Shown piece by piece: positions 1 through 59,457 of a stretch of 64,000 nucleotides of DNA (positions are counted from its first letter, which is position 1; each line of letters opens with the position of its first letter). The notes beneath the pieces are model-generated. The model did not search any database. It was not told the origin of the DNA and worked only from the letters and a program-made list of their open reading frames with translations. Source of the DNA: Chiloscyllium plagiosum (Eukaryota). The translations under genes were made by a program, and so were the position numbers. Location of the stretch: NCBI RefSeq assembly GCF_004010195.1, contig NC_057718.1, positions 53,751,615 to 53,815,614 on the forward strand. The letters run 5' to 3'.

Positions 1-999
1 TTGAGACTAAGTGTGGAGATGGGGCTTTAAGTGCGAGAGACATGTGCATTTTCTCGCAGGTTTGCATTCTTCTGAGCTCACTACAAGTTTTATGTGGGCA
101 CAAAGTTCTTGCCACTACCGGGATCTTCTCGATGCCAATTTCTGGGTGCCATGTTGAAATCGGACTCAAACAGCAACTTCATCCCCCCTCCGGATATGTT
201 GGTGACATGCCAGAAAACAACTCCATTCTTCCATGACATCTCCCTAAAGGTGCTCCGGTTGCATATGGCCAAGAAAAAGGAATGTGCTGTTTGTCAGGAT
301 TGAGAGGCCATCTTGAGTCACCACAACAGCCTAAACTGAGGAAAGTCAGAAGACAGTACTGCAAGGGGATGAGTGAGCTGCTGAGCACTGCCCCAATAAG
401 TGATATTTTCTATTCAGTGTAAGCTTGCTACTACACAGGGTTGTCATATGCAAGATTGAGTGCAAAGCATTGCCATCAGATGCTATATGTGTAATCACTG
501 TCTGCCACTTCACTGTGCCAACCAAGCTGTACTGCTTGCACCACAGTGCAACTGCCTCTCACACATCTGCCAAGGTTCATAGTTAATAGAGCTCTAACTC
601 TAACCACCTCAAACACCATCAGCTCATTGACATTTCATCCCAACTAGAAGTATCTACACAGCAAATCGATTCTCACCACGGGCTACAATGGGGCAAGGAT
701 GCAGCCACAAATCATGGCTTCAGAAGGTACACTTCACAAGGATATTCCGTGTACATATCAGGGAAAAGTAATCTTGTTCTGCATCAACTTAAGGTCCTTG
801 ACCACAATGAATAGACTTCATTCAGAGCCCATTGGCTCATAACTTCTCCCAAAACAGTGCTCCTTATAATCACTGTCACAACTGTGTTGCAAGGCAAATG
901 CTGATGACCTAGTCCCATTATTCCAATAGTCTACATCATTATTATGAATGTAAAGTGCCGATTAAATTGTCAAAATAATTTTTTGTACTAACAGGACTG

Positions 1000-1800
1000 A
1001 GTTGATGGAGCTGTACAGACAAGGAGATAATATCATATCAGCCACACACAGACTGGAGAGGAGGTAAAGGAAGCTGCCCAACCTCTGTCTAATGTTGTGG
1101 TACTGGCATATGAGATCATGGCTGCCTGCTTGGATCAGGTGGTAGTCACTGTGAAGGGCCACATCCTGCAGAATGTGCAGGATTTGCTAGATACATGAAA
1201 GGATTTCATTCCATTGCACAAGCCATGGATGCATTCATTCACTGATGAAGCAAGAGGGACCCAAAGGACCCTTAATCTTCCTCCAAGTGCTGTATTCCCT
1301 CAAACAGTGAAGGAGATGCCAGTATGTGATAACAAGAAGGAGGAATGATAGACAAGCACCCAGGAACTGTCATCTCATGGCATTCCAGATCTACTCCATC
1401 ACATCACCTCTCCTATCCCAGGAGCACCTCCACCATGTCCAGCTGAGGTGGTTGCATCTCTATAAGAGATGTCAACAGGCCAGAGTCTTCAAAACTGACA
1501 CCCAAGAGGAAATTCCTGCCGAAATTATCTGAGACATGATAGCAAAGCAGTCATAGGCTTCCTCAAGCTATCCACTGCTAGAGCTGTTGGGGACCTGGGG
1601 AGTATGGGATGCTGTGAGGGACCCTGGTCCAGTCCAGATAGAGTGTGCTGAATCATCCTGGCGTGCTGTACACTGCACAATTGGAGCAAACATGTAGGCA
1701 ATGTACTGGATTGTGAGAAACTGGTGGAATGGGAACAGTCTTCTGAGGAGAAGGTGGACATTGAGGAGGAAAGGCTGTAATGGCACGAAACTGGAACAGC
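1000..1800 (+). mobile_element. Degenerate PIF/Harbinger transposase (DDE_Tnp_4/HARBI1-like) fragment
   Basis: KGFHSI at ~1198 and SPDRVC*IILACCTLHNW from 1631 match the Harbinger NRKGFHSINVQ and ACCxLHN motifs. An acidic tail follows; stops and frameshifts are present. Confidence 0.7.
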
Positions 1801-2164
1801 ACAAACCTGCAGCGATAGGAAAATACAGATCTGACCAGATTTTAGGTGCATGGGAATTAATCTTCTATTCAGAACGTACAGCATACTATGCAATATTCCT
1901 GTGACCATTTTAAATCTGTTGAGACATTTGACTTTTCAGGTTGAATCTGTCATGTTTTTTAGATAACTGTGAGTGATGTTGAGTTTGTGACTGTACCATC
2001 TTTAAAGGCTCTCAATCCAGCCACATAAGCATTGACAATCTGGCATTGTCTCTCAAAAGCAACATAATGGGACAGCAGCTCCAGATTGCCTACGACACAT
2101 CAGTCAGCATGGCTTGGGACACCCTCACATGTACATCCCCATTCTCTCACCCAAGTTGCTGTTT

Positions 2165-2298
2165 TTTGGGTACTGATGAAGGGCTCCGGCCCGAAACGTC
2201 GATTCTCCTGCTCCTCGGATGCTGCCTAACCTGCTGTGCTTTTCCAGCAACACACTCTCAACCCTGATCTCCAGCATCTGCAGACCTCACTGTCTCCT
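2165..2298 (+). mobile_element. PLE terminal-repeat mini-insertion (family A) with hammerhead motif
   Basis: Same repeat as the PLE end at 46735-46830. Flanked by agttgctgttt at 2154-2164 and 2299-2309 (TSD-like). Confidence 0.75.
2173..2200 (+). ncRNA. Minimal hammerhead ribozyme motif
   Basis: CUGAUGA (2173-2179), A, stem II GGGC/GCCC with UCCG loop, GAAA, CGUC. Predicted cleavage is after 2200; stem I pairing is not evident in this copy. Confidence 0.65.
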
Positions 2299-2329
2299 AG
2301 TTGCTGTTTAACCTCCTACTTAACTACAT

Positions 2330-3100
2330 CCCATCTAAAAACTCAAATTATTCTGTTCATCTGCTATCATCTGCTCCAACACTGTCCTAGCCTAGGCCTG
2401 GGTGGCATTGGACCCACACTCCCCATCTGTCAGGGTGTTATCAAATGGTATAATGAGCCACGGTCACAGCGGGTATCTCTCAGTAACCAGGCTTGTAAAG
2501 GCACCAGGACCTTCAAATGCACTGAGCACATGGGACTGCTCCAGGATGTAGGTGTCTTGGCAGCTGCCAGAGTAGTGGGCACACACCTCCAGGAAGTGTA
2601 ATGGTGATCACAGAATAACTGGGCATTAATTGAATTAAAGCCCTTCCTCTTGATGAACTCCACATCATTGTGATATGGCCCTCTCAGTACCAAATCTGTG
2701 CAACACCTTAGCAGAGTGAACTGTTTCCAAATCCTACTGCCCAGGCTGCAGCCCTGGCCTTGATATAGGGAAACAAAATGAACCGCTGTGACCATACACA
2801 GATGTCATCAGTCACAGTCCAAATGTATTTGTGGGTGCACACTGAGAGGTTTCACATGGGTCATCTGTCATCCCCTGGAAGGAGCCAGTCACATTGATGT
2901 TCAAAGCGACAGTTGTATTCATAGCCAGAGGGAGAGGATGGTCTCCCACTCCTGCAACACCCACAACTCCCAGCCCTGCTCCAGTATCTGGCAAAGTCCT
3001 GTTACATTGCCCTGGGAAATATGGAGCCTCCATTGTCACTGCACCTCACTCATTCCCAGGAAATGGAGTCAGGGCCAAAATGCTCTGGTCCTTTTGGGGA
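2330..3100 (-). mobile_element. Degenerate PIF/Harbinger transposase
   Basis: ORF 2812..3039 has HPLPLAMNTTVALNINVTGSFQGMTDD; ORF 2430..2795 has FIKRKGFNSINAQLFCDH. Confidence 0.85.
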
Positions 3101-3930
3101 TCCCACACATCCTGAGGGAACCTGCAGCTGTGACATCTTCATCCTCTGCTACTGCTCCTGGCTTTCCATTAGCCCTGGTCCTCCTGTATATGAGGAAGGC
3201 AGCCACATAGTCACCAGCACCCAATGAGGGACAAAGTGCGGCACTCTCAGTAGAAACGATTGACCTTGGGAACAGAAGGAGTGAAAGAGGTTCTTGCTGT
3301 CAGAAAAGTTCTCGGTGACATACTGTGCAGTGGGATATGCAGCACCCCAATATTGAGGACTACGACTGTATTATTCACTCAGCTTCAACCTCAACATGTG
3401 CAACAGCTTGGTCAAGATGCTATACTGACTTAAAGACCGACGCATTGCATTAAAAGAGAGACTGATTGGAATCCCATCCTATCCCAGACCCATGTCAACA
3501 TTCAACCTCTCATTGCGTTCAATACAGACCATCAGGGCACCTACATGACCGATGATGGAGCAATGGTGTATGGCTCCTACAATATCCTTAGAATGTGCAC
3601 TAAAATTGGTCACCTTTGACCAGCATTGCTCTCTTTTTAAGACATTGCTGCTAACTTTGCCATCATTGAAATGCCAATGTTGAATTTACAAGCACCAATG
3701 GCATCATACCGCAGCTGATCCCTAAGTCCCTTTGCTCTACATACATAGCAAATGAAATGATTACAAGTTAAATACAGCTGGGGTTTGTAAAAGGCTGCTG
3801 CATATATTTATTCCTTCAATGTCCTAGTATCCAGCAAATGTAGATCATATACAATTGTCCATCAAACTGACACTGACTACACTCACCCTGGGCTGTGTCC
3901 CAGCTAATATTGAGCAGCACTTTGCTTCTC

Positions 3931-4128
3931 AAAAGTGGCACCTGATAGCAACGACCACAGCTCATGATGAACATTGTCAGTACCTCTGCCTGGTCGTCAG
4001 GTAAATACCGAACCCCTCTTTCCCCAGACCAAGAGTGGCAAGTGATAGAAAGAACAACAGCTCATAATGAACAGTCTGGGCCTCTGCCTGAACATCAGGT
4101 GAATACCAAACCCCCCCTCTCCCAGACT
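3931..4128 (+). repeat. Diverged 2 x 100-bp tandem duplication
   Basis: agtggca..gatag..acagctcat.atgaaca..cctctgcctg..tcaggt.aatacc.aacccc..cccagac repeats with period 100. Confidence 0.85.
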
Positions 4129-5189
4129 CGCTGACACTGTTCACAATGCATTACACCAACAGCCCATTCATATTAATTGTCTTAATATGAAGACCTACCA
4201 CATTGATCTTTGTCTGTAACTGTCCTCCACTTTGTTCCCTGTGCCCCATGCAAATACTGCATCTTTTTAGTTTTTTTTTATTTTTGATTGCAGGCTGAAA
4301 TGGGAAATTAATCGTTTTCGAAACTAAGGATTACTGACCTTTGCAAAAATAATAATTTGGGCACTCGTTGTAAACACTGTTTACACAGCTGCTTGTTCCA
4401 ATCGTTGTGAAAGCCTAAGTTGCTGATGAACTGGAGCCAAGGGGCATGAATAGAGTTTTGGATGACAAAACAATAGCTGATTGGTCTTTGGCCTAATAAT
4501 TGATGGCAAAGCCATCTGCCTGCCAAGGACTAGCTGCACTGCTTGGGATACGAATGTTTTGGCCAAACCATTGAGCTCTCTGGAGGAGAAGGCACTGTGT
4601 TTTTGCTCTGCAGTAAAAAACAACTCAATCCTAAAGATAAGCAGTTTGTTTCCTCTTTTCAGTTGTGTTAATCTCTGAGTTTTAATTGGCAAATCCAAAA
4701 CTTTTATAAGTGGGAGCCAGTCACCCTCTGTCTCCTGCAAACAGGTGAAATATCTAGGAAAGAAAGATCACGAAGCAATGTTCCAATCAATAAAACAATC
4801 ATTTCAGAAAATCTGATGGACGGAGACCTGAGCTGTCTTCCCTTTGCCACATAATACCCACACTTTTATCACTGTCTATGATTGACAGTATGTGCATATA
4901 GATAGGATGTTTATAAGGGGGGTCAGAGTTTTAATTAGTAGACTTATAGGGTTATAATCTTGTAGAGGTAGAGAGTTCATAATCATTTATCCGTAGTTAG
5001 AATCTGTTTACTTACAATAGTCATTCTTATTAAATAAGGAAGCCTGGTCCATGCTTTCTGTCAACCTGGGTCTGAAGGCCACTTAAATTGGGGAGTTCTG
5101 GGTACTCTTAAAAATATTTAACTTTTGTGATATCTCTGGGAATAGTGGGGCTTGATTTCCAGTGTGCTATCCCACTTGGCATCACACCT

Positions 5190-5700
5190 TAATAGTGCCC
5201 CTTTGGAAGCCATGATAGTATTCATTACCACAAACCCCCATTCCATAGCCTAGCATGCCTTGAGTTACCGATGCTATTCCACAAACTTCCATATACCTGG
5301 AGCACCCTTCATCACCATCCTTGTCTGGTCAATGATAGCCTTAATGAATGCAGATGCTGCAATGTAGCATTGTTCACATTGACTATCTGGGTCCATAGTG
5401 AACTGGGAAAACTGTACTGCTTCCCTGTAAAGGGCATCAGTAAATGTTTGCACACACTTGTGAGCTACAGACAGGGAGATGCTGCATGAATCCCCAGTTG
5501 AGGATTCAAAGGAGCCAATGGTGAAGAAGATTTCTAGTACCACTGGCATTGTGCTGCCTTCGAAGCCAACCAGCTGCAGACCTGCCTACAGAAGATAGCA
5601 GAGGTAGGTGATGACTTCTCCAGCCATAGGAAGATGTCTTCAACATTGTCATTCACCCATAACTGGTATGCCTTCTATGCTTTTTCTCTGTGATCTGGTC
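5190..5700 (-). mobile_element. Degenerate PIF/Harbinger transposase (third copy)
   Basis: ORF 5274..5549: FFTIGSFESSTGDSCSISLSVAHKCVQTFTDAL...AIIDQTRMVMKGAP (helix-turn-helix region plus IDxTH-like motif). Confidence 0.85.
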
Positions 5701-6971
5701 AACATCCCTGAAAATCCTGGTCCCCCTTTCCACAAACTGCTTGATCATCCATATCTGTAACTCCTTCAGCCACATGTCTCTGCTTCTGTTTGTCTTTGCT
5801 CTTCCCTTCCTACCTTTCTCCTTCTTAACAATGCTCAGTCAGTTGCTGGGTTCGGTAGATCAAACATGTGGCATGAAAAAACTGACCTCCGAAGGAGTAT
5901 CTGTTATGGGTTGGAAACTTTCCTTGTGAGATCTTGGTATAGTCAATGTACCCTTTGGGCCCTTTACACGCTACTGGTGTGTTGGGTAAGAGCCATCTCT
6001 ATACGGTAAGGTTCAAGCTCCATGATTCAAGACTGGAGTTCCCTTTCCTGATGCTAGCATAGGAATGCATTTGTGTTCTTCATATTCACATTGCTTTACA
6101 CGCATGTGGTGATAGGCAAACTCTCACTCTCGTTGCCCCAGATTGTCTTCTGTGAGGCAGCTTAACAACCTTGCAATGAGCAGCCCACATGATGGCTAAA
6201 CCACCTTATTCTCAATCTTCACATGCATGGGTTTCTAAGTTGTCCTGCATGTATCAACATACTAGACCTTAACTCGGCCCTCCCAGAGGACCATCAGAAC
6301 TATTGGTATTTGCTTGGTGCTCGCATTGAGAAAGGTTACAAGCCATAGTTGGGAGGTGGTTGTTTAATCTTGAAAACCTTTCACACCTCGACTGTGCAGT
6401 GGGCTTTTCCCTTCTGTGAAAATATTTGAAGTGAGTCTTAATGCTGTAGATATTTCCACTTGCTGTTCCAATTGCCTCAGTTGTGAGTTAACTAACATGT
6501 GGAAACAGATCTGTGGTCCCTTCCTTTTCTTCTGCACAATACCTGTGAGGCATTATTTTGGAAAACAGAGTGGCAAGAAATGATTGTTGTTAATGTTTCC
6601 TTCGAGTCTTTCACCCTCCACCCTCTACCACTTTAGAATCTACTTTCTACTCCTTAACCCTTGATAGTGTTTCATGTTCTTCTTCCATCCCCTCTGTCCA
6701 TTATCAATATCTCCCTGTAACAATCGGCCCTCTCATTATCCCTGGTTATCTCTACTGTTTGTCATGATCTCACTACTATCCAGATCTCCTTGTTCAGTCT
6801 TACCATGACACACTCTGTTAGTTAGATCCACTGTTTTTCCACCTTCCCCAACACATTTGATTTTCCCATTATGATCCCCTCCTTTAACACACAGTTCCCA
6901 GCTTTCACTGTCCCCATTCCTCCAACATGGTTATTCTCCCCTTTGTATTTAAGTTGCCTCTATTCCACAGG

Positions 6972-7539: not shown

Positions 7540-8920
7540 TGACGTGGAGATGCTAAACTCATTGATCACAAGTTCCAATGTGCCATAGCGAGAAACTATA
7601 ATGACCTTCTCAGAAGACAGACACAGGACATGACTGATAGCGTACCCTGCATTGTCTAGTGCTTCCTGGGAGTGAAGAAACTACACCATTTTCTTCACAG
7701 CCTGCAACACATTATCGATGAGAATGAGCACCTCACCAAGATCTTCCATGCACCTCCAGTTCTTGCCTTTAAACAGCTGCCAAACCTTAATCAGACCATT
7801 GTTCGCAGCAAACTGCCCAGCCTTCAGTACAACATTGACCACAACACCATATTGTGGCAACCACTGCAAGACGGGTCAGAGAGTTGACACGGATACTACC
7901 AATACACATGGGAACACTATCCACTGTGTACACATATGACTTGGTCAACATTGTCTATCTTATATGCTGCAAGCAAGAATGCCCCGAGGCATGGTATGTT
8001 GGTGAGACCAAACAGACACTATGACAATAGATGAATGGACATCATACAACAATCACCAGACAGAGGTGTTTCCTCCCAGTTGGGGGACACTTCAGCAGTC
8101 AGGGACATTTGGCCTCAGATCTTCAAGTGACTGTCCTCCAAGGCAGACTTTGGGATATGCAGCAATGCAGAGTGGCAAAGCAGAGGTTGATAGCCAAGTT
8201 CCATACCTAAGAGGACGGCGTCATCTGGCATCTTGGGTTCATGTCACACTACAGGTTACCCCACTACACTATGCACACACACATACACACACGCACGCAC
8301 GCAGACACACACACACATTCTCTCTTTCTCACATACACACACACACACTATCTTTCTCTGTCTCTCTCCCTTCCCCACCACCCCCCGCCCCACCCCACCT
8401 CATATACACACACATGCGCGCACAAACACATATAAGTCTTTGGGGTTAATTTGCATTTGCAGATTTGTATTTGCAGACACATTCTATTTTGTTCAAAAAG
8501 CACACAATCTGTCGGCAGTCATTCTATAAATTCCTACTTTGGAAATAGAACCATTCTGACTCAAGATTGGGATGCAGACAGACTCTAATCTCACACCTTT
8601 AATGCATTGTCTGAGCTGAGATGTCATCTTTTTTATATAAAACTTTAAGTTATCTTGGGACTGTGACTTGAAAGAAGTTCTGAGGTTTATACATTAATCA
8701 CTCGAAATCTGCACCCTCATTCAAAGTGATTAAAGATTTAACAGCAATGTAGTCTTGTTCAATACTTCGCATCAGTTGTATGACACTATCATCTTTTACA
8801 CTAAATTCTGTGTCTTATGATCCTGCCCCACAAGCTACTCGATGGTGGAGCAGCACTCCAAAAGCTTGTACTTCCAAATAAACCTGTTGAACTAGAAGCT
8901 GGTGTTGTGTGATTTTTACC
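7540..8920 (+). mobile_element. Penelope-like element 3' part (GIY-YIG endonuclease) with family-B terminal repeat
   Basis: PPVLAFKQLPNLNQTIVRSKL (ORF 7672), then NIVYLICCKQECPEAWYVGETKQTL from ~7948. Ends with ggagcagcactccaaaagc...aataaacctgttg...ggtgttgtgtgatttt. Confidence 0.88.
8272..8430. repeat. (CA)n/(CT)n microsatellite inside the PLE
   Basis: Direct reading; explains the HT-rich ORFs. Confidence 0.9.
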
Positions 8921-13273: not shown

Positions 13274-13361
13274 ACTTTAACAACACATATTAACATGGAA
13301 GGGACATCTTCACTGCTGTAAATTATTGATTTTAAATAAATGGAGTCAAATTCTGATCTAG

Positions 13362-13481
13362 GAGAAAGTGAGGACTACAGATACTGGAAATCAGAGCCAT
13401 TCCTGATGAATGGCTTCTGCCCGAAACATCGATTCTCCTGTTTCTCGGATGCTGCCTGACCTGCTGTGCTGTGCCTGACTT
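13362..13481 (+). mobile_element. PLE family-A mini-element (inverted end plus hammerhead-bearing repeat)
   Basis: ctgatgaatggcttctgcccgaaacatc at 13403-13430. TSD aaattctga(t/c)ctag at 13348-13361 and 13482-13495. Confidence 0.8.
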
Positions 13482-18027: not shown

Positions 18028-18165
18028 TCCAAAATGGAACAAAGAACTGTGGATGCTGGGAAATTCTGAAGAAGGGTCACTGGACACAAAACATTGACTC
18101 TGCTTTCTCTCCACGGTACAGATGCTGCCAGACCTGCTGAGTTTCTCTGGAAATTTCGGTTTATG
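18028..18165 (+). mobile_element. PLE-type mini-element with degenerate hammerhead motif
   Basis: Inverted end piece, then ctgaagaagggtcactggacacaaaacattgactctg...gatgctgccagacctgctgagttt. Confidence 0.65.
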
Positions 18166-23119: not shown

Positions 23120-24910
23120 TCACTGAGGGCATTCAAGAGACATAGCGTGTGAAAGTAGATTTAGAGAGATGGTTACACAGCAGGGCCAGTCAGATAGATG
23201 AGTAACTGTCTGGAAAGGTAAGAAGGTAATGCTGAAGTTTCCTGTGACTATTCCTCTCTCAAACAGCTATCCCGTTTCGGGTACTGTTGAAGGGGATAGT
23301 TTCTCAGAGGAAAGTAGAAGTGTCAGTCAGATCCTGGGCACTACGAATGAATCTTATGTTCACTGGGTTTTGTCAAGATTTAAAAGGATAATTGTTATAG
23401 GGGACCCTCCTGTAAGGGGCATAGACAGGAGATTGTCTAACCTTGAATGTGAATCTAGGATAAAATATTGCCTTTCTAGTGATAGGCTTAAACACAGCTC
23501 AAAGGAGTTGAAACGTATTGTTAAAGGGGTGAGTGAGAAGCCAAAAGTTGTTACACATATTGGTAAGGACCACTTGTTTAGGGAAAGAGTTAAGGCTTTG
23601 CAGAGTGAATACAGGACGTTAGACAGAGGGTTGTAAAGCAGATCCTGAAAAGGTAGTAATCTCTGGTTTACCCCTGGTGTCATGTTCTAGCGAGTAATAA
23701 GATAGGGCAGATAAATCAATAGCTGAAGAGATGGTGTAATGTGCAAGTATTCAGATATTTGGATCATTGGAATCTCTTTTTGGGCAAAAAAGATCTATTC
23801 AAAGGGATTGGTTTCACCTGAACTGAAAAGGGACCAATATCCTGGTGGGGGGATCTGCTAGTTCTATTTTGGGAGTCTTTAAACTTGTAGAGAGTGGGGT
23901 GGGGAATTCCTAAGTAGCAGTAAATATAGAAAGACAGACAAGGATGATTCTGAATCAGAAAAAAAGCAAAGTAATTAGAAAAGGCAGATAAGAGCAAATC
24001 AGAGAAAGAAGTAACTGAAGAATTAATTTCAAAGTAAGGGGTCCTACCTGTAAGGTTGATGAACTCAGAGCATATATGGGAACATGGCACTGAGACATCA
24101 CTGCGATTACAGAAACGTGGTTGAGGTAAGGACGGGACTGGCAGCTCAATGTTCCAGGTTTTAGATGCCACAGGAAGGATAGAAAGGGAAGCAAAAGAGG
24201 CAGGTGAGTGGCATTTTTGATTGAGGAAGACAATACTACTGCAATTAGAGAAGTCGAGGGATCATTCAGTGAAACTATATGAGTAGAAATTATAAGTGGA
24301 TGATCATCTTGATGGGATTGTACTACAGCACCATCCCTCCCCCCATTCCAGTTGTCAGAGGGAAATTGAGGAGTAAATATGTAGAGAAAACATAGATCAT
24401 AGGATCCCTACAGTGTGGAAGCTGGTCTTTTGGCCCATCAAGTCCACACTGACCTTCCATAGAATATCTCACCCAGATTCATTCTCCAATCCTATCCCTA
24501 TAACTTTGCATCTACCATGCATATCCACCTAGCCTGCACATTCCTGGATATGATGGGTGATTTAGCATGGCCAAACCACCTGAGCTGCACATCTTTGGAC
24601 TGTGGGAGGAAACCAGAGTACCCAAAGGAAGTCCACGCAGACACAGGGAGAATGTGCAAACTCCACACAGACAGTTGCTTGAGGCTGGAATTGAACTCAC
24701 ATCTGTGGCACTGTGAGGCAGCAGTGGTAGCATCTGAGTCACCGTGCTCCCCAAAAACTCAGATAGATGTAAGAATAATTGGGTTTTAATAGTAAGTTTT
24801 TAACTTTCCAAACATTGAATGGAACTGATCAAGTCTATCCCAGGATATTGTAGGAAGTTTGGGAAGAAATTGCAAGGCCCCAAACAGGAATATTTGAATC
24901 ATCTATAACC
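23120..24910 (+). mobile_element. CR1 LINE: ORF1 SGNH-esterase region and ORF2 endonuclease, degenerate
   Basis: ORF 23229: IPLSNSY...IIVIGDPPVRGIDRR...KPKVVTHIG. ITETWL endonuclease motif at ~24106. Interrupted by a SINE. Confidence 0.85.
24393..24752 (-). mobile_element. HE1-like SINE inserted in CR1
   Basis: Full-length reverse complement of the family. Confidence 0.88.
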
Positions 24911-24917
24911 ATAAGGA

Positions 24918-25877
24918 TTGGTTCTGGGCCCACTGCTTTTCATCATTTATATAAATGATTTGGATGCAAGCATAAGAGGTATAGTTAGTAAATTTGCAGA
25001 TGACACAAAAATTGGAGGTGTAGTGGACAGCGAAGAGGGTTACCTCAGATTACAACGGGATCTTGATCAATGGGCTGAGGAGTGGCAGACAGTGTTTAAT
25101 TTAGATATATGTGAGGTGTTGCATTTTGGGAAAGCAAACCTTAGCAGGACCTATACACTTACTGGTAAGGTCCTAGGGAGTGTTGCAGAACAAAGACACC
25201 TTGGAGTGCAGGTTCATGGCTCCTGAAAGTGGAGTCACAGATAGATACGATAGTGAAGGTGTTTGGCATGTTTTCCTTTATTGGTCAGAGTATTGAGTAC
25301 AGGAGTTGGGAGGTCATGTTGTGACTGTACAGGGCATTGTTTTGGCCACTGTTGCAATATTGTGTGCAATTCTGGACTCCTTCCTATCGGAAGGATATTG
25401 TGAAATGTGAAAGGGTTCAGAAAAGATTTACAAGGTTGTTGCCGGGGTTGGAGGATTTGAGCTATAGGGAGAGGCTGAACAGGCTGGGACTGTTTTCCCT
25501 GGAGCATTGGAGGCTGAGGGGTGACCTTATAGAGGTTTACAAAATTATGAGGGGCATGGATAGGATAAATAGAGAAAATCTTTTCCCTGGGGTGGGGGAG
25601 TCCAGAACTAGAGGGCATAGGTTTAGGGTGAGAGGGGAAAGATATAAAAGAGACCTAAGGGTAAACTTTTTCACACAGAAGGTGATGCATGTATGGAATG
25701 AGCTGCCAGAGGAAGTAGTGGAGGCTGGTACAATTACAACATTCAAAAGGCATCTGGATGGGTATATGAATAGGAGGGATATGAGCCAGGTTCTGGCCGA
25801 TGGGACTAGATTGGGTTGGGATATCTGGTCAGCATGGATGGGTCTGTTTCCGTGTTGTACACCTCTATGACTCTATA
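24918..25877 (+). mobile_element. Relatively young 5'-truncated CR1 LINE (RT C-terminus and 3' tail)
   Basis: LGPLLFIIYINDL...KFADDTK; LQYCVQFWTPSYRKDI...RLRGDLIEVYKIM; tail ctctatgactctat. Confidence 0.93.
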
Positions 25878-25992
25878 TGCGCCTCAAACAAATTCCTCTC
25901 AATTCCCTTTGCAGCAAGGAGAATATCCCAACTTCTCCAACTTAACTTCAGAACTAAAACGCTTCATCCTAGCGAGTTTTGGGAATATTTGT

Positions 25993-26170
25993 AGCTCAGG
26001 TTGAGGTTCTGGGTTTAGGTTTGCTCACTGAGCTGTAAGGTTTATTTTCAGACGTTTTATCATCATACTAGATAACATCTTCAGTGAACCTCCGGAAGAA
26101 GATGTTACCTCGTGTGGTGATGAAACATCTGAAAATGAACCTTCCAGCTCAGCGAGCAAACATACATCCA
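25993..26170. mobile_element. Inverted-repeat mini-element, PLE-type family C, with hammerhead-like motif
   Basis: Arms ~26010-26082 and ~26098-26170. The minus strand of 26051-26084 reads ctgaagatgttatctagtatgatgataaaacgtc. Confidence 0.65.
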
Positions 26171-26961: not shown

Positions 26962-27140
26962 TAAAAATCACACAACGCAAGTTATAGTCCAACAGAATTA
27001 TTTGGAAGTACATGCTTTCGGAGGTAGACTAAGGAGCACCACACCGAAAGCTAGTGCTTCCAAATAAACCTGTTGCACTATAACCTGGTGTTGTGTGATT
27101 TTTAACTTTGTCCAGTCCAGTCCAACACTGCCACCTCCAC
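26962..27140. mobile_element. PLE family-B inverted terminal-repeat mini-element
   Basis: Arms ~26962-27021 and ~27044-27104; same repeat as 8840-8920. Confidence 0.8.
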
Positions 27141-29139: not shown

Positions 29140-30295
29140 AGAGACAAAAAACCTGCAGATGCTGTAATCCAAAGTAGACAGGCAGGATGCTGGAAGAACA
29201 CAGCAAGCCAAGCATCAAGAGGGGGAGAAGGCAATGTTTCAGATGTAACCCTTCGCAGGACTGGCAATGGGAGTAAGGGGAGCTGCAGATAAAAGGGGTG
29301 GCTGGGGTGGGGGGCAGGGTTTTGAGGTGGGGATAGGTGAGCACAGGTTGAGGGTTTGACCTGGTTGGTCGATGAAAGGAATGAATACGTTTGGTGGCTT
29401 GAAGGAAGGGGTCAATGAGAGGACTGGAAGGGAGGGGGAGGAGCTGGGAGGGGAGTTGGATGATAGAAATGGAGGTTATTTGAAACTGGAGAACTCAATG
29501 TTGAGTCCTCCAGGCTGTAGGCTGCCCAGGCGGAAGATGAGGTGGTGTTCCTCCAATTTGTGATCTGATTCATTGTAGCAATGAAGGAGGCCAAGGATGG
29601 TCATGTCAGAAAGGGAGTTGGAAAGGGGAATTAAAATGGGTGGTGACTGGCAGATCAGATTGGCCCGTGTGGGCTCAGCTGAGATTCTCTGTGAAATGTT
29701 CCCTAAGTTTACATTTAGACTCCATAATGTAGAGAAGATCACATTGGGAGCACTGGATACAGTAAACTAGGAGAGGCAGGTGAACCTCTGTCTCATCTGG
29801 AAGGACTGTCTGGGGCCCTGGATAGAGGTCTGTGGGGTGGGGTTGGGGGGGAGGGGGTGGTGTGTTGGAAGATTTTGCATCTTTTCTGGTTGCAGAGGGT
29901 TGGGAGGATTGGGGGTGTTGATGGGGAGAGTGGCACAAACCAAGGACTGTCAAAGGGAATGGTCCTTATGGAAGTTGGGGGGGGGTGCGAGATGTTCTTG
30001 GTGGAGGTGTCTAGTTGGAGTTGGCAGAAGTGTTTAAGGATGATGCATTGGATGTGAGGCTGATGGGGTAGTAGGTGAGGACAAGGGGAACCTGCATTTA
30101 TTGAATTAAACGGGAGGTTTAGAGCAGTGGAGCAGGGAATGGAAGTGGTGCGGTGGAAGGCTGTCTGGATGACAGAGGGAGGAAAAGCATGTTGTTCAAA
30201 ATAGGTGGACATCTTGGATGCTTGGGAGTGGAATGTCTCCTCATCCAAACAGATGTGGCGGAGGCAGGGGAATATTTCTGCCATGTTTTGTGACA
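29140..30295 (-). mobile_element. Penelope-like element (RT C-terminus, GIY-YIG, terminal repeat)
   Basis: LVYCIQCSQCDLLYIMESK (ORF 29675); KLEEHHLIFRLGSLQPGGLNIEF (ORF 29476); terminal repeat with cctgcgaagggttacatctgaaac on the minus strand. Confidence 0.9.
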
Positions 30296-35974: not shown

Positions 35975-36330
35975 CAATGTGGAGATGCTGTGTTGAACTG
36001 AGGTGGATAAAGTCAAAAGTCAACAGGTTTATTTAAAATGACGAGCTTTTGGAGCGCTGCTCCATCATGAGGTGAAGTGGAGAGAGGCGCACAGACACGG
36101 AATATGTAGGTGGAGAGATAATGGCAAGATAATTCCAGGTAATTAAAAATATGAACAGATAAGTACAAATAGTGTGAGTAGAGTATCGACAGGTTGCGTA
36201 CCATGTCTTTGCAGGTAATCAAGAGTGTCAACAGATTCAGAGAAGCAATGTGAGTAAAGTTTCAATAGCTGAATAACAGTGAAGGGATAGTCTATGCACC
36301 GACTAATTGAGCAGAGAAATAATTACAAAT
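35975..36330 (-). mobile_element. PLE family-B-like terminal repeat
   Basis: Reverse complement cacctcatgatggagcagcgctccaaaagctcgtc...aataaacctgttgac. Confidence 0.7.
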
Positions 36331-40098: not shown

Positions 40099-41719
40099 GG
40101 AGCTTAATTCTGATGAGATGCTTTTTCAGTGAGTCAGTGTGATGTGGAAATGCATGGAGGAGGACTTTTCTGGAGCTTGCTCGCAAGAGGATCAATCTGC
40201 CTATAAAATTCAGAGAACCTACCTGCAGTCAGGGATCAGAGTTTTGGTCTTTCATAGAGTTTAATCTCCCTCAGCTCACTTACTTCCTACTCCAAGGAGC
40301 AGCACAAGATTCCACCTCTTCACCTCTTTTCATAACATGCTGCCAGACCGACTGAATATTTTCAGCATTTTCTAATTTTATCTCAGATTTCCAGGATTTT
40401 ACTTCTGATTCAGTGGGGCCCATTTTGAATTTGCCAGGTAGTGTAAAACAAGGCACATTGATTCATGTACCCATTGTACAAGACAGGATGTTGGGCATAG
40501 GAATAAAGAACTGCACCGTTCATTCAGTGATCCCAGCTAATATCCTGAGGCCGCAACCTACAATGCCACTCGCAATTGAGTGAATTCCAAAAATTAATCA
40601 ATTCAATTGATTTCTTCAGGGCTGGATTTTGCAAAGAAAATACAGAAATGGCAGTTTTGAAAGGCTTCATGTACAGTTTCTCTCGATGAGCTCGAGTGAG
40701 CTTTCTCATACAATTCTCCACCACTCACCTCATTGCATATGGACGCCACGTCACACAATACCACTCCAGCAATATCACACGCTCATGACTGACAGATGTA
40801 ATTCCGGCTGTCAGGCACTTCCAGGACTTTGTCGCAGGTACCATATTTGAATCCCAACTGTGTACCACATCAAGCCAGGAATAGCCATTCACAAGATGCT
40901 GATGCACAATTCCAAACGACGTGCCTGGGAAAGGCAATTCGACAACTTAATTCCCTTCACCCTCTCAAAACACCATCTCTTCCTCCTCCACCTCCGAGAA
41001 GATGGAGACTCCTCAGAGAAAGCATTGACAAGTCTGCCTCCAGCACTCTCCACCAGCCCAAATACTGACACGTCATTGGGTGCTATGTCTAATTTTGACA
41101 AAGCCTCAGTGGACCAGGAATGTTAACTCTGTCTTCATCTTTGCAGATTCTGCCAGATCTGTTGATTTTCTCCAGCACTTTTTGATTTTGTTGTTGTATC
41201 TAAATTAGAGATGGGAGCTCATTCTGGTGAGCATGTTGGTGCCATGTCTTTGTAGCTGGTCAAGAAGAACTGCCCCAGGTCATTGGCACTTAGAGAACAG
41301 GCACAGGCAAGAGAGTTCCCTGTGGCACTGGCCATTAATAACTTCATCCAAATGCACAGCCAGGTTCAAGATCAGCAAGCTGGCTTGTCCAAGGCTTTCA
41401 ATGAACTGGATCGATCTAAGAAGTATCCATGATATCATCTGTATGCTGCTGCCTCTGGCCATCTATATGTCCATGAACATGTTGTAAGTTGCCATGGAGA
41501 TCCAGGTTCAGAATACTTAGTGTCTGCTCGTTAGATGTACAGATCTGCACTCCACTGGTCTAGTGATTGCTGCTCAAAATTAATGGCAAGACAGAAGAGG
41601 GACAAAGGACCCTGACCTCATTCTAAATAATCCTCATAAGGTGACAGGATTGTGCCAGACAGTACCTGGCCAGAGAAGGGACCAGAGGCAGCCCACATGG
41701 AAGTCTCTTCTCAAGGAAA

Positions 41720-41942
41720 GGGAAAGTGAGGGCTGCAGATGCTGGAGATCAGAGCTGAAAATGTGTTGCTGGAAAAGCACAGCAGGTCAGGCAGCATCCA
41801 AGGAGCAGGAGAATCGACGTTTCAGGCATGAGCCCTTCTTCAGGAATTCCTGAAGAAGGGCTCATGCCTGAAACGTCGATTCTCCTGCTCCTTGGATGCT
41901 GCTTGAGCTGCTGCGCTTTTCCAGCAACACATTTTCAGCTCT
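41720..41942. mobile_element. Palindromic PLE family-A mini-element with two hammerhead motifs
   Basis: Palindrome 41751-41942 centred on 41846/41847; TSD ctcttctcaaggaaa at 41705-41719 and 41939-41953. Confidence 0.9.
41850..41877 (+). ncRNA. Minimal hammerhead ribozyme motif (mirror copy on minus, 41816-41843)
   Basis: CUGAAGA, A, GGGC-ucau-GCCU, GAAA, CGUC. Confidence 0.65.
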
Positions 41943-42586
41943 TCTCAAGGAAACCCGGGCCCTCCACTTTCAGCCTACCAGTAATCCCCAAACGTGTGGG
42001 AGTTTGAGCAGAACAGGGTGAATCTGCATCTAACCTGGACACCCTCAGCATTTCTGGGTTGCCAAGCCACAAATGCCTCGAATATCAATGTGACTGCCAT
42101 ATCTGAACAGTGTATGGCACAAGCAAGCTGTCCATTGGACCTAAGATTTACTGAAGGAGGAATTGAAGGGTCACTTCCTAAGGGAGTAGTAAAGGCTAAG
42201 ACATTGGTTATGTCCAAGGCTGCATGAGAAAGGTTTTTGATCTACAAGGGATTCAAGGCTCGAGTGGAGATGGGAAGAAGGAGGGTGCAGATAGCCGTTA
42301 GACCCACAGAGATATAACAGGACCCATGTTCTAGACAGATTATTCATGTTCATGTGCCCCAAGGTGAGCAGGTAAAACTGCTGCAATGTTCTCAAGCTGA
42401 GCAGCATCAACAGAAAAGAAACTTTACGAAATGAAAATAAAATGAGCTTCACTTTTAAAAACTGATGCTATATGAGTAACATCAGGCAAGTAAATCCAAC
42501 TGAATTGAAATCATTTCCAAAGATGTTCTCATTGCCAAAACGATTGATTCTACTCAACAAGAATGAGGCGGAGAAGACCCCTATAA

Positions 42587-46732: not shown

Positions 46733-47772
46733 TCTGGATTAGTGGTGCTGGAAGAGCACAGCAGTTCAGGCAGCATCCGAGGAGCTTCGAAATCAACGTT
46801 TCGAGCAAAAGTCCTTCATCAGGAATAAAGGCAGTGAGCCTGAAGCGTGGAGAGATAAGCTAGAGGAGGATGGGGGTGGGGAGAAAGTAGCATAGAGTAC
46901 AATGGGTGAGTGGGGGAGGGGATGAAGGTGANNNNNNNNNNNNNNNNNNNNNNNNNNNNNNNNNNNNNNNNNNNNNNNNNNNNNNNNNNNNNNNNNNNNN
47001 NNNNNNNNNNNNNNNNNNNNNNNNNNNNNNNNNNNNNNNNNNNNNNNNNNNNNNNNNNNNNNNNNNNNNNNNNNNNNNNNNNNNNNNNNNNNNNNNNNNN
47101 NNNNNNNNNNNNNNNNNNNNNNNNNNNNNNNNNNNNNNNNNNNNNNNNNNNNNNNNNNNNNNNNNNNNNNNNNNNNNNNNNNNNNNNNNNNNNNNNNNNN
47201 NNNNNNNNNNNNNNNNNNNNNNNNNNNNNNNNNNNNNNNNNNNNNNNNNNNNNNNNNNNNNNNNNNNNNNNNNNNNNNNNNNNNNNNNNNNNNNNNNNNN
47301 NNNNNNNNNNNNNNNNNNNNNNNNNNNNNNNNNNNNNNNNNNNNNNNNNNNNNNNNNNNNNNNNNNNNNNNNNNNNNNNNNNNNNNNNNNNNNNNNNNNN
47401 NNNNNNNNNNNNNNNNNNNNNNNNNNNNNNNNNNNNNNNNNNNNNNNNNNTTGGAGGGCATCTTTAACCACGTGGGAAGGGAAATTGCGGTCTCTAAAAA
47501 AGGAGGCCATCTGGTGTGTTCTGTGGTGGAACTGATCCTCCTGGGAGCAGATCCGGTGGAGGTGGAGGAATTGGGAATACGGGATGGCATTTTTGCAAGA
47601 GGTAGGGCGGGAAGAGGTCTAATCCAGGTACCTGTGGGAGTCGATGGGTTTGTAAAAAATGTCAGTGTCAAGTCGGTCGTCATTAATGGAGATGGAGAGG
47701 TCCAAGAAGGAGAGGGAGGTGTCAGAGATGGTCCAGGTAAATTTAAGGTCAGGGTGGAATGTGTTGGTGAAC
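46733..47772 (-). mobile_element. Penelope-like element spanning the gap (RT C-terminus plus family-A terminal repeat)
   Basis: Minus strand KNAIPYSQFLHLHRICSQEDQF...MASFFRDRNFPSHVV; hammerhead-like ctgatgaaggacttttgctcgaaacgtt at 46795-46822. Continuity across the gap is assumed. Confidence 0.85.
46932..47450. other. Assembly gap (519 N)
   Basis: Run of N. Confidence 1.
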
Positions 47773-49354
47773 ATTGCTCAGAACTTTTTTAAAACATGTA
47801 ATTTGTATAAAATTCTGCAGGGTGGTCAGTTTTGCTGCAATGTGTTGATGTATATGCGAGCTGGAAGTTGCAGTGTAAAGCATCTCTTAATTTTGTTGTT
47901 CTTTTTGTAACCCGGTGGTCAAGAATGGTCTAGAATTCTTGACCATTAAATAATATTAATGCAGTTAAAATAATTTGAACACATTTTACTCAGGTTTCTG
48001 TAACATTCTTAAACAAACTGCTCAGTGTACATCCACTACTTCATATCAACTAGTCAGGCTTTCAGTTGGACATCTTCTGATACTCTATTCAGGTGCTCTG
48101 CAATGGGTATTGCACTAACTCCATTACACATTTCCCGTATATCTTATGTTGCAAAATATCTTTTAAGCAAAATGATTAGGCATTGTTCTGTCCCAGTAAA
48201 TTTTAATTCACGATTTCTACTGTCAGTTACGATTTTGTGCGAAGCTGTGATAATTTAATAGTGGGCTATGAAACATCCCACGATTCACGAAGAAGATTGA
48301 CCTGACAGTTGACATGAACGTGATAGTCACAAAATGCTAATTCCCAAAAATAATTACAGAACGTACAAGTGTTTAGCAATTATTAGCTGTTAGTTATTTT
48401 TAAAGCATGACACCAGTAGCATGATGACTGGTGACTCAGAAGCTGACACAAATGAAGTAAAGTCAAAGAAACTGGTTAAAACAGTGACCTTCATCTTAAA
48501 GAAAACTCTAAAACTTTGGAAAATGTAAAATGAAGGATAAACACCTATGTTTATCTGTGTTGTAAGAAGAAATCCACCCCACTTCAAGAACAGAATTTCT
48601 TTTGTCTACTACTTCTGCTGATGCCAAAGCAAGCTATCCTCAATTTTTCCCTTAAGGAAGATGAGCTACTGTAGAGTTGAAATGGACTCTGGAACCTATT
48701 CAGAATAACTAGGTGAGGTCCCAGAACTTTATTTTATGGGCCAGATTTGGACCTTTCTATTCAGGCTCACTCAGCTACCCCCAACAAGTTTCACTCAACT
48801 GCTGTCTAGAAATCTCAGGCATTCCAAGCATAATGCTATATTTTGATGAAAACATTTTATGTGAGGAATACAGTGCAGAAATTCTAGGAATGTGTTCACA
48901 TACTGCAGAATTCATAATAATGTATTCCTTGAAATAATAATCTGCCTGCACATGGGTCTGCAACAAAGAATAGACGATTCCCATCAAAAGAATGAACAGA
49001 TAGTGCAGAGAGTACAGAAGCTAGCTAAATGACTTGAGGAGAGTGGGGTGGGGCAAATGGAATTACAACATGTTGTTGTAATCGGAAGGCTTCAGGCCCC
49101 CAAACATTTTGAATCCACATGGCCCTATTTGATCCAAACAAATTTCATCATTGCTTAGCTGCACAAATCAGTCAAAAAAGTGATAGGCTGAACCTCACAA
49201 CAGGAGTCATAGTTTGAAGTTATGATAATTTGATGTTTTATCTTGAAGGCAAAGGTGACAGTAACCCATGAGTATCGTTTGCTGCTGAATATCATTCATG
49301 ACATAGCAATGTTTTTGTCTTTTACAGCCATGTAGATGTGACATAACAATGTTA

Positions 49355-51039: not shown

Positions 51040-51762
51040 TATGGTGCATCAGTGCAGTAGGATCTCGTTGTCATTGTTCATGAGTCACAGAAAACTAGCA
51101 TGTAGGTACATCAGATAATAAAGAAAGTGAAAGGAATGTTGGTTTTTATACCTAAAGGAATAGAATATAAAGGTAAGAAAGTATTGTTGCAATTATTCAG
51201 GGCATTGGTAAGCCCACACTTGGAGTATTGTACACAGTTTTGGTCCCCTTATTTGAGGAAAGATACAGTGGCATTGGAAGCAGTTCAGAAGAGGTTCACT
51301 AGATTGATCCATGAGATGAGGGGTTTGTCGTATGAAGAGAGATTGAATAGTTTCGGCCTACACTCTGTGGAATTTAGAAGAATGAGGGGTGATGAATTTG
51401 AGGTATTCAAATTGAGAAAAGGTATGAATAAAACAGATGTGCTTCCTCTTGTAGAGCATTTTAGGGTGAGAGGTCATAATCTTAGGATAAGGTGTAGCAA
51501 ATTTAAAACAGAGTTGAGGAGCAACTACTTCTCCCAAAGCGTTATGAATCTGTGGAATTCACTACCCAAAAGTGGTGGATGCTGGGACAGTGAGTGAATT
51601 TAAGGAGAAGTTAAACAGATTTTTAGTTGATAATGGGTTGAAGGGTTATGGGGAGAAGGAAGAAAAGTAGAGGTGAGGAGCATATCAGCCAAGATTGAAT
51701 GTCAGAGCAGATTCGATGGGTTGAATGGCCTAACTCAGCTCCTATATCTGATGAACCTATGA
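51040..51762 (+). mobile_element. CR1 3' fragment
   Basis: ORF 51127: LVSPHLEYCTQFWSPYLRKD...RRMRGD...LWNSLP. Confidence 0.92.
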
Positions 51763-57859: not shown

Positions 57860-57962
57860 CTTCTCATGAAGGGTAATTGGACTCAAAACATTCACTCTGT
57901 TTTCTCTCCACAGATGTTGACAGACCTGCTGAGTTTCTCCAACAATTTCTATTTTTGCTTCC
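57860..57962 (+). mobile_element. Degenerate PLE-type terminal repeat
   Basis: ctcatgaagggtaattggactcaaaacattcactctg...acctgctgagtttctcc. Confidence 0.6.
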
Positions 57963-58689: not shown

Positions 58690-59265
58690 AGGTTGTACAG
58701 GATGTTGGTGAGGCAACGTTTGGAGTACTGTATACAGTTCACTATAGGAAAGTTATTATTAAACTGGAGAGAGTTCAGAAAAGATTGACCAGGATGTCGC
58801 TGGGACTATAAGGTTTCAGTTATAAGGAGAGGCTGGATAGGCTGGGTCTTTTTTCAATCGACTGCAGGAGGTTAAGAGGTGACCTCATAGAGGTCTATAA
58901 AATCATGAGGGGCATGGATTAAGTGAATTGCAAAGGTCTTTTCCCTAGGGTAGGGGAATTCAAAATTACAGGGGATATTTGTAAGGTAAAAGGAGAAAGA
59001 TTTAAAAGGGACCCAAGGGACAACATTTTCACACAACAGGTGGTTGAGATGTGAAATGAACTGCCAGAGGAAGTGGTAGATGCAGGTACAGTTACAACAT
59101 TTAAAAGACAGTTGGACAGCTACAAGAATCAGAAAGGCTTAGAGGAATCTGGACCAAACACAGGCAAGTGGAACTGGTTTTGTTTGGGAAACTTGCTTGG
59201 TATGAACAAATTGGACAGAAGTGTCTTTTTTCTGTGCTTTATGATTCTATGACACAATGATTCTA
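58690..59265 (+). mobile_element. CR1 3' fragment
   Basis: Closely similar to 25320-25877; atgattctat tail. Confidence 0.88.
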
Positions 59266-59349: not shown

Positions 59350-59457
59350 TTAAAAACCACACCAGGTTATAGTCCCACAGGTTCATAACCTGGACTATAA
59401 ACTGGTGTTGTGTGAATTTTAACTTTGTCCATCCCAGTCCAACACCGGCTCCACCAA
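59350..59457. mobile_element. PLE family-B inverted mini-element
   Basis: Inverted arms (acaccaggttatagtcc / ggactataaactggtgt); TSD ctt(a/g)tagtaaag at 59338-59349 and 59458-59469. Confidence 0.8.

What the first reader, a model, noticed from the sequence alone, without database searches (positions are those of the whole stretch)
2173..2200. Intact-core minimal hammerhead ribozyme motif in a Penelope-type repeat
Seen: CUGAUGA, A, a perfect 4-bp stem II (GGGC/GCCC), GAAA, CGUC. Established: PLE terminal repeats carry minimal hammerheads in which helix III is replaced by a palindromic tetramer (here ACGU) and which cleave as dimers. Related copies lie at 13403-13430, 41850-41877, 41816-41843(-) and 46795-46822(-), with more decayed ones at 18066, ~29236-29260(-), 30320 and 57863. 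Inference: this genome is seeded with many potential self-cleaving motifs that could cut host transcripts. Stem I support is weak in this copy.
Basis: partly seen in the sequence, partly recalled or inferred. Interest (0 to 1): 0.72.

Follow-up and report, generated by a model that had tools for sequence, protein, structure and literature searches.

The report
Penelope hammerhead stub, missing one arm
This is the core of an already described tiny self-cutting RNA motif, carried in a 126-base leftover end of a very common shark jumping gene; this copy has lost one arm of the motif and has no usable partner nearby, so it likely does not cut anything.

Summary
The motif is real and read correctly: CUGAUGA-A-GGGC/GCCC-GAA-ACGU-C at 2173-2200, predicted cut after 2200. 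A strict descriptor gives 3 hits in the window and none in 200 shuffles. It begins a 126-bp insertion (2173-2298) with an 11-bp target-site duplication and a tail. Such motifs lie on the same strand 3' of all three Penelope-like RT/GIY-YIG remnants in the window. The family is huge (76,592 contigs laid in one DNA run). Its listed common variants fall at N7, loop II and a CpG, and helices I-III covary across four families in the window. This is the published minimal type-I hammerhead of Penelope pseudo-LTRs. The inference about host transcripts is not supported. This copy starts exactly at C3, so the native 5' strand of helix I is gone (A.G at pair 2.1/1.1). The only other intact same-strand core lies 39.7 kb away and is locked in a hairpin. 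In one RNA run (2% read, a weak test) family reads cross the cut site in both orientations, no ends pile up, and the flanks have no reads. The scan noted this family many times elsewhere in this genome; its U6-fusion lead could not be tested here.

The parts
2173..2200 (+). Minimal type-I hammerhead core (C3-A9, extra A, 4-bp helix II, GAA, palindrome ACGU, C17); predicted cut 2200/2201
   Evidence: helix II pair probability 0.98-1.0
2173..2298 (+). 126-bp 5'-truncated end of a Penelope-like pseudo-LTR (family A), with a tail of about 34 bp (about 2265-2298)
   Evidence: 90% identity over 122 bp to 41843-41722; read depth confined to bins 2164-2331, loose ends at 2173 and 2298/2299; tail placed by the short arm of the 41.8-kb insertion
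2154..2164 (+). Left target-site duplication AGTTGCTGTTT
2299..2309 (+). Right target-site duplication AGTTGCTGTTT
2165..2172 (+). 8-nt non-family junction TTTGGGTA in place of the native 5' strand of helix I; gives A.G at 2.1/1.1, then U-A, G-U, G-U, G-C
2201..2205 (+). 3' strand of helix I (GAUUC), intact
41720..41938 (.). Head-to-head family-A insertion with cores at 41850+ and 41843-, tail on one arm, 15-bp TSD (41705-41719 / 41939-41953); both cores fully paired in a long hairpin
   Evidence: (core unpaired probability 0.0 with 60-nt flanks)
13362..13481 (.). Family-A insertion: inverted tail arm plus a mutated core at 13403+, 14-bp TSD with one mismatch
46795..46822 (-). Family-A subfamily core with three departures from its family majority, in a pLTR with native upstream sequence
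47451..47777 (-). PLE reverse-transcriptase C-terminal remnant (one stop), 5' of the 46822 motif across an assembly gap (N at 46932-47450)
   Evidence: 89-90% identity to Chiloscyllium punctatum RT proteins P0002-P0004
29479..30272 (-). Decayed PLE thumb, linker and GIY-YIG ORF remnant, followed without a gap by a decayed motif at about 29236-29260 (family E)
   Evidence: tblastn E 8.5e-30 with P0006
7681..8288 (+). Decayed PLE GIY-YIG remnant, followed without a gap by a decayed family-B motif at 8839
   Evidence: tblastn E 1e-8
36043..36071 (-).
26051..26129 (.).
18066..18095 (+). Family-C decayed motif (5-bp helix II); relatives at 57863+, 30320+ and 41144+

Best explanation
2173-2298 is a 5'-truncated end-piece of an endonuclease-bearing Penelope-like retrotransposon, and the hammerhead core at its front is a passenger that likely does not cut in this place. 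Shown: insertion boundaries, target-site duplication, tail, membership of a very large family, and such motifs lying 3' of PLE RT/GIY-YIG remnants. Inferred from the Anolis mechanism (PMC11167929): the element's protein nicked the target and began reverse transcription at the end of the tail, about 98 nt downstream of the cut. The copy ran through the uncut site and stopped at C3, perhaps near the RNA's 5' end. Inferred from cross-family covariation: in the parent element the motif is under selection and would work as a dimer. There the ACGU palindromes of two copies pair as helix III, each core cuts the other strand after C17, and the element's protein probably assists. In this stub the substrate half is intact, but the catalytic half has lost its native helix I strand and no free partner lies near.
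For: TSD and boundaries. PLE linkage at 3 of 3 ORF remnants, two without a gap. The nearest named proteins are Chiloscyllium punctatum RTs at 89-90%; P0004 has a CxxxxCxxC linker and a GIY-YIG stretch. Family variation is listed at N7 (52% and 42% of summed depth in X1 and X10), loop II (up to 97%) and the 16.2 CpG (16% and 19%), and not in the boxes or helix II. Across 9 motifs of 4 families: helix II pair 4 is 9 of 9 paired in 4 pair types; helix I pair 2 is 9 of 9 in 3 types; 15.1:16.1 is 9 of 9; 15.2:16.2 is 6 of 9 with C-G and G-C, the 3 misses all CpG-type CA. For this copy: P(helix I 2.1-1.1) = 0; the dimer-active fold is -17.7 kcal/mol against -30.7 for the best cofold; the nearest strict same-strand core is 39,677 nt away and hairpin-locked. 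A left-junction contig in organism B shows that the insertion predates the A/B split (record 9).
Against: Nearest-neighbour energies omit the tertiary core and any protein. The chance junction gives a 4-bp helix one step from the cut, more stable by this model than the family's own helix I (-1.7 against +1.0 kcal/mol). How much an A.G at 2.1/1.1 slows cleavage is recalled, not found in print. A partner could lie outside the window, since 2173 is near its edge. Of the differences found, 85 and 51 were not shown, so core conservation is seen only among the best-supported rows. The motifs were picked by their cores, which biases the pair counts, and n is small. No compensatory change in helix II was seen within family A. 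Earlier unchecked notes report U6 joined at the predicted cut elsewhere in this genome, which would mean that family members do cut in vivo.
Confidence: 0.85

Rival explanations
1. The stub is a substrate in trans. Its intact ACGUC/GAUU half is cut when an element RNA or another stub, held by PLE protein, supplies the catalytic half, so host pre-mRNAs carrying such stubs are nicked where the element is active.
For: The substrate half is intact. In a dimer each core cuts the other strand (PMC4209133, Fig. 1 legend and text, plus geometry built). Family reads occur in polyA RNA in both orientations (3,511 laid of 12.96 million records). The Anolis ribozyme is protein-assisted (PMC11167929). U6-at-cut notes (unchecked).
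Against: The intermolecular junction gains -1.7 to +1.2 kcal/mol with intact or near-intact partners. No step in coverage across the cut in either orientation (711 to 826 and 1100 to 1315 reads from 2198 to 2205; ratio 1.55 to 1.59) and no end pile-up. No reads in the unique flanks in run X21. No Pfam hit at a curated cut-off in 129 ORFs of the first 22 kb.
Confidence: 0.08
2. This copy cuts as a homodimer or monomer using the junction letters GGGUA as a replacement helix I strand.
For: Core and helix II are perfect, and helix II is stably formed (P 0.98-1.0). Four pairs (U-A, G-U, G-U, G-C) are possible from 2.2 outward.
Against: A.G at 2.1/1.1. P(replacement helix) is 0.07 with 15-nt flanks and 0.001 with 60-nt flanks. 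The predicted fold pairs the core with itself. Published monomers are inactive (PMC4209133). No sign of transcription here (weak).
Confidence: 0.04
3. The stub is a member of a separately mobile non-autonomous family (SINE- or retrozyme-like) that uses the hammerhead in its own cycle.
For: Very high copy number of short pieces. Animal retrozymes are described as PLE derivatives, including in one chondrichthyan (bioRxiv 10.64898/2026.07.22.740005).
Against: No tandem array of the unit here (self-comparison). The three family-A stubs differ in build (direct only; inverted tail plus direct; head-to-head), as insertion products of one PLE would (PMC3846280). The same sequence continues upstream into pLTR and ORF.
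Confidence: 0.03

Closest known systems
Minimal hammerheads (min-HHR) in pLTRs of metazoan Penelope-like elements (Cervera and de la Pena 2014, PMC4209133; abstract, Results, Discussion and start of Methods read; one of two supplements searched)
   Same: Type-I core without a helix III loop, palindromic 15.2-16.2, extra base between 9 and 10.1, G10.1-C11.1, location in the pLTR, mostly single dispersed motifs from truncated elements, several families per genome; reported in Neptune, Poseidon and Xena PLEs of fishes
   Different: Helix II is 4 bp (7-8 in S. mansoni); family helix I is C-G, U-A, U.U, A-U; this copy lacks the 5' helix I strand; no shark term found in the searched supplement
PAc Poseidon element of Anolis carolinensis (Frangieh et al. 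2024, PMC11167929; main text and start of Methods read)
   Same: Hammerhead near the end of the pLTR, a tail of 30-40 nt, copies made through the uncut site, no RNA-seq ends at the cut
   Different: Here the nearest ORFs have the Zn-finger linker of Neptune/Nematis; the AUG inside the core opens only 17 codons
Insertion units of EN+ PLEs with inverted pLTR, tail and TSD (Arkhipova et al. 2013, PMC3846280; Craig et al. 2021, PMC8557442; passages read)
   Same: TSD of about 10 bp, tail on one end, head-to-head palindromes
   Different: Units here are only 120-220 bp and have no ORF
Non-LTR retrozymes of animals (bioRxiv 10.64898/2026.07.22.740005; abstract, introduction, part of Methods and passages read)
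   Same: Short non-coding PLE-derived sequence with a type-I hammerhead
   Different: Retrozymes are tandem arrays with a ribozyme in each unit; this is a solo truncated insertion

Membership tests
min-HHR of PLE pLTRs | Conserved core CUGANGA ... GAA | tested here: met
   N7 is the variable position in the family
min-HHR of PLE pLTRs | Helix II with G10.1-C11.1 and one unpaired base between 9 and 10.1 | tested here: met
   A2180, G2181-C2192, 4 of 4 pairs
min-HHR of PLE pLTRs | Palindromic 15.1-16.1 tetramer and H17 | tested here: met
   ACGU, C17; AGCU in family B
min-HHR of PLE pLTRs | Helix I flanking the cut, at family level | tested here: met
   C-G, U-A, U.U, A-U in the other four family-A motifs; pair 2 is 9 of 9 paired across families. 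Short and weak.
min-HHR of PLE pLTRs | Helix I flanking the cut, in this copy | tested here: not met
   Native strand absent, A.G at 2.1/1.1; this copy is a truncated member, not a complete ribozyme
min-HHR of PLE pLTRs | Covariation | tested here: inconclusive
   Present across four families (9 motifs); none seen within family A (searches give per-position counts only)
min-HHR of PLE pLTRs | Self-cleavage as dimer or with protein | not testable with these tools
   needs bench work; RNA reads show no ends at the cut (weak)
EN+ Penelope-like element | Motif lies 3' of a PLE RT / GIY-YIG ORF on the same strand | tested here: met
   3 of 3 remnants; for family A itself only across a 519-N gap
EN+ Penelope-like element | TSD, 30-40-bp tail, inverted pLTR arrangement | tested here: met
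   TSDs of 11, 14 and 15 bp at three family-A insertions; tail; head-to-head pair
Neptune clade | CX2-5CxxC linker between RT and EN, and RT phylogeny | tested here: inconclusive
   Linker present in P0004, the 90%-identical relative; shared with Nematis (PMC8557442); no tree with reference clades was built
Non-LTR retrozyme | Tandem units each with a complete hammerhead | tested here: not met
   no tandem copy at this locus

The most novel reading that the evidence does not exclude
Tens of thousands of Penelope stubs in shark introns and UTRs keep an intact substrate half and form a genome-wide set of latent cut sites. When the element is active in the germ line, its RNP supplies the catalytic half and nicks host RNAs at these sites, a retrotransposon-directed, ribozyme-based cleavage of the host transcriptome in trans.
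Probability: 0.06. Interest if true: 0.7.

Novelty: new member of a known kind. Interest (0 to 1): 0.14.

Why it matters
As found it is ordinary: one broken copy of a motif published in 2014 for Penelope-like elements of many animals, fishes included. Its modest value is as material. What these hammerheads do in vivo is still open (PMC8557442 calls their function unclear; PMC11167929 found cleavage not needed for insertion in vitro). A shark genome with several young, very abundant families offers natural variants for that test. Searches for a report on this shark family found none, but the library lacks most subscription papers, and Lunse et al. 2016 was not available.

Tried and rejected
Rfam at E up to 10: 11 matches, all miRNA hairpin models, no hammerhead and no U6 in the window. 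No whole genome is held, so copy number, 5'-end statistics and U6 fusions could not be computed. Pattern scans for family copies: 0 in viral contigs; 10 of 10 metagenome hits matched only the 22-base pattern and were dropped as chance. No RNA holder was listed for 500-6500; this is no evidence on expression. Run X22 laid 0 reads (no test). The depth drop and loose ends at 46826 looked like a 5'-end hot spot, but the loose letters match the other subfamily's upstream sequence, so I do not count them as a start site; only the opposite-strand joints there (46785 to 46826: 10, 8 and 5 contigs in three organisms) point to a fold-back point 4 nt before C3. MAFFT misaligned family D, so pairs were counted on hand-set coordinates; the 26097 row was out of register, and drops it and counts the 41.8-kb insertion once (9 of 11 rows kept). 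Pfam on 129 of 377 ORFs of 55 aa or more (only those starting in the first 22 kb): two weak hits below cut-off, no host exon (short exons would be missed). Pfam did not recognise the RT fragment itself. No predicted protein bridged the RT to the family-A pLTR. Folding z-scores of the stub are unremarkable (-1.1 to -1.2). An 'extra G before the first base', noted by earlier agents, is not seen at this copy: the base before C3 is A. No paper on mismatches at pair 2.1/1.1 was identified from the listing. Supplement file 1 of PMC4209133 (figures with alignments) could not be searched and may hold shark motifs; bioRxiv supplements were not seen.

Full report
Observation. In standard numbering (recalled) this is C3-A9, one extra A, a 4-bp helix II opened by G10.1-C11.1, G12-A14, the palindrome ACGU and C17 at 2200. 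A strict descriptor finds 3 such motifs in the window (2173+, 41850+, 41843-) and none in 200 dinucleotide shuffles. A decay-tolerant one finds 10 against 0.15 per shuffle. Rfam's models do not detect it.

The unit that carries it. Similarity to the other copies starts exactly at 2173 and runs to about 2298. Laying public runs on 1900-2600 gave 76,592 contigs in a DNA run of organism A and 68,301 in organism B, almost all on this stretch. These counts are not copy numbers, but they mark a very large family. An 11-bp duplication, AGTTGCTGTTT, flanks it at 2154-2164 and 2299-2309, with 8 non-family letters (TTTGGGTA) between the left copy and C3. A contig of organism B crosses the left junction with 8 differences in 318 letters, so the insertion is older than the split of A and B. 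Two sister insertions show the layouts described for Penelope-like elements (PMC3846280, PMC8557442, passages): a head-to-head pair with a tail on one arm and a 15-bp duplication at 41720-41938, and an inverted tail plus a direct arm with a 14-bp duplication at 13362-13481.

It is a Penelope-like element. The window holds three PLE ORF remnants, and each is followed on the same strand by such a motif. 47451-47777(-) is 89-90% identical to RT proteins of Chiloscyllium punctatum and leads, across a 519-N gap, to the family-A motif at 46822. 29479-30272(-) (thumb, linker, GIY-YIG) leads without a gap to the decayed motif near 29260. 7681-8288(+) leads without a gap to a family-B motif at 8839. 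The closest relative with an endonuclease, P0004, has a CxxxxCxxC linker and LYIGET, which points to Neptune or Nematis (PMC8557442); no tree was built. The host is therefore likely a carpet shark.

Conservation and covariation. Among the 40 best-supported differences (85 more not shown), those inside 2173-2200 fall at N7 (52% and 42% of summed depth), in loop II (up to 97%) and at the CpG of 16.2 (16% and 19%). In the second subfamily the majority restores GGGC/GCCC where the 46822 copy departs, and position 17 is C or U (51 rows not shown). Across 9 motifs of four families: helix II pair 4 is paired 9 of 9 as C-G, U-A, G-C or A-U; helix I pair 2 is paired 9 of 9 as U-A, A-U or C-G; the palindrome is ACGU or AGCU, with 15.2:16.2 intact in 6 of 9 and CpG-type decay in 3. 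Helix I pair 3 is paired in only 3 of 9. The set is small and was picked by its cores, but it fits selection on the fold in the parent elements.

This copy. The family continues upstream with letters ending in CATTC, giving helix I pairs C-G, U-A, U.U, A-U. At 2173 that strand is gone. The junction letters give A.G at the pair next to the cut, then U-A, G-U, G-U, G-C. Helix II forms with probability 0.98-1.0; the replacement helix I forms at 0.07 with 15-nt flanks and 0.001 with 60-nt flanks. The dimer-active fold scores -17.7 kcal/mol against -30.7 for the best cofold. These energies omit tertiary contacts and protein. In a dimer each core cuts the other strand, so the loss weakens this copy as an enzyme but leaves it a possible substrate. 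Pairing with a partner gains only -1.7 to +1.2 kcal/mol. The only other strict same-strand core in the window is 39,677 nt away and fully paired with its own inverse; 13403 is broken in helix II and in the palindrome. Partners left of the window's start cannot be seen.

RNA. In one polyA single-cell run (about 2% read), 3,511 reads lay on the repeat and none on the unique flanks; 97% ran on into other sequence, so they come from other loci. Coverage shows no step across the cut in either orientation (711 to 826 and 1100 to 1315 reads between 2198 and 2205), and no place with many starts or ends was listed. A fragmented polyA library is a weak test, but bulk cleavage of host transcripts is not visible. 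No host exon was found by Pfam in 129 ORFs of the first 22 kb (also weak).

Mechanism. Most likely (0.85) the stub was made by the element's own machinery. The steps would be nicking of the target, reverse transcription from the internal start that defines the tail (shown for the Anolis element in PMC11167929; inferred here), copying through the uncut ribozyme, and a stop at C3. The family-A stubs of this window all begin 0-5 nt before C3 and none at the cut, and opposite-strand joints cluster 4 nt before C3 in three organisms. This fits earlier, unchecked notes that stubs are copies of the uncut front of the RNA, though the extra G they report is absent here. The ribozyme's job, if any, lies in the parent RNA: dimer cleavage of tandem transcripts, weak in vitro (PMC4209133; review PMC6765202, passages) and protein-assisted in Anolis.

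What is known and what is new. Minimal hammerheads in PLE pseudo-LTRs, their spread as single motifs, several families per genome, and their presence in fish Neptune and Poseidon elements are all in PMC4209133. Retrozymes in one chondrichthyan are in a 2026 preprint. Searches for this shark family gave nothing relevant in the listings. This scan has noted the same families many times in this genome, including U6 copies joined at the predicted cut; that is the more interesting lead, and I could not test it without the genome. Verdict: observation confirmed, interpretation partly supported, a truncated new member of a known kind, interest 0.14.

Noticed in passing
window 36043-36071(-), 8839-8867(+), 26962-27104, 59356-59456: A further pLTR family (B) with a 5-bp helix II and the palindrome AGCU; it ends the PLE remnant at 7681-8288, and there are head-to-head stubs at 27.0 and 59.4 kb.
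   Followed up: partly
window 25960-26170: Head-to-head pair of family D motifs with a 6-bp helix II and a perfect 4-bp helix I; the two arms differ by a compensatory U-A / C-G change in helix II. No ORF or TSD was found for it.
   Followed up: partly
window 2219-2245, 46750-46776(-), 18122, 57914, 41147: A box starting ATG-CTG-CC and reading like M-L-P-D/E-L-L lies 18-26 nt after the cut in families A and C. In family C it follows a pyrimidine run and CAG, like a splice acceptor. It may be the ORF start or a protein-binding site; no fetched protein carried it.
   Followed up: partly
window 2264-2300: The family-A tail has CTGAT about 30 nt before a pyrimidine run ending in AG, like a branch point and acceptor; the AG overlaps the TSD here and at 13358.
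   Followed up: no
window 2168-2171 and 2261-2264: GGGT in the 5' junction is the reverse complement of ACCC at the point where the short arm of sister insertions ends, and it matches a variant held by only 3-4% of family depth; possibly a 4-nt inverted arm, possibly chance.
   Followed up: no
window 2020-2067, 2116-2163, 2524-2600: The flanks are parts of an older, lower-copy repeat (raised contig depth); not identified.
   Followed up: no
window 23202-23636, 25325-25870, 51106-51597, 58742-59129: ORF fragments that look like CR1-type LINE remnants (label recalled, not tested).
   Followed up: no
window 46799 in run X21: An A15.1 change in 75 of 280 reads of one orientation and almost absent in DNA runs; probably one expressed locus with a broken core.
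   Followed up: no
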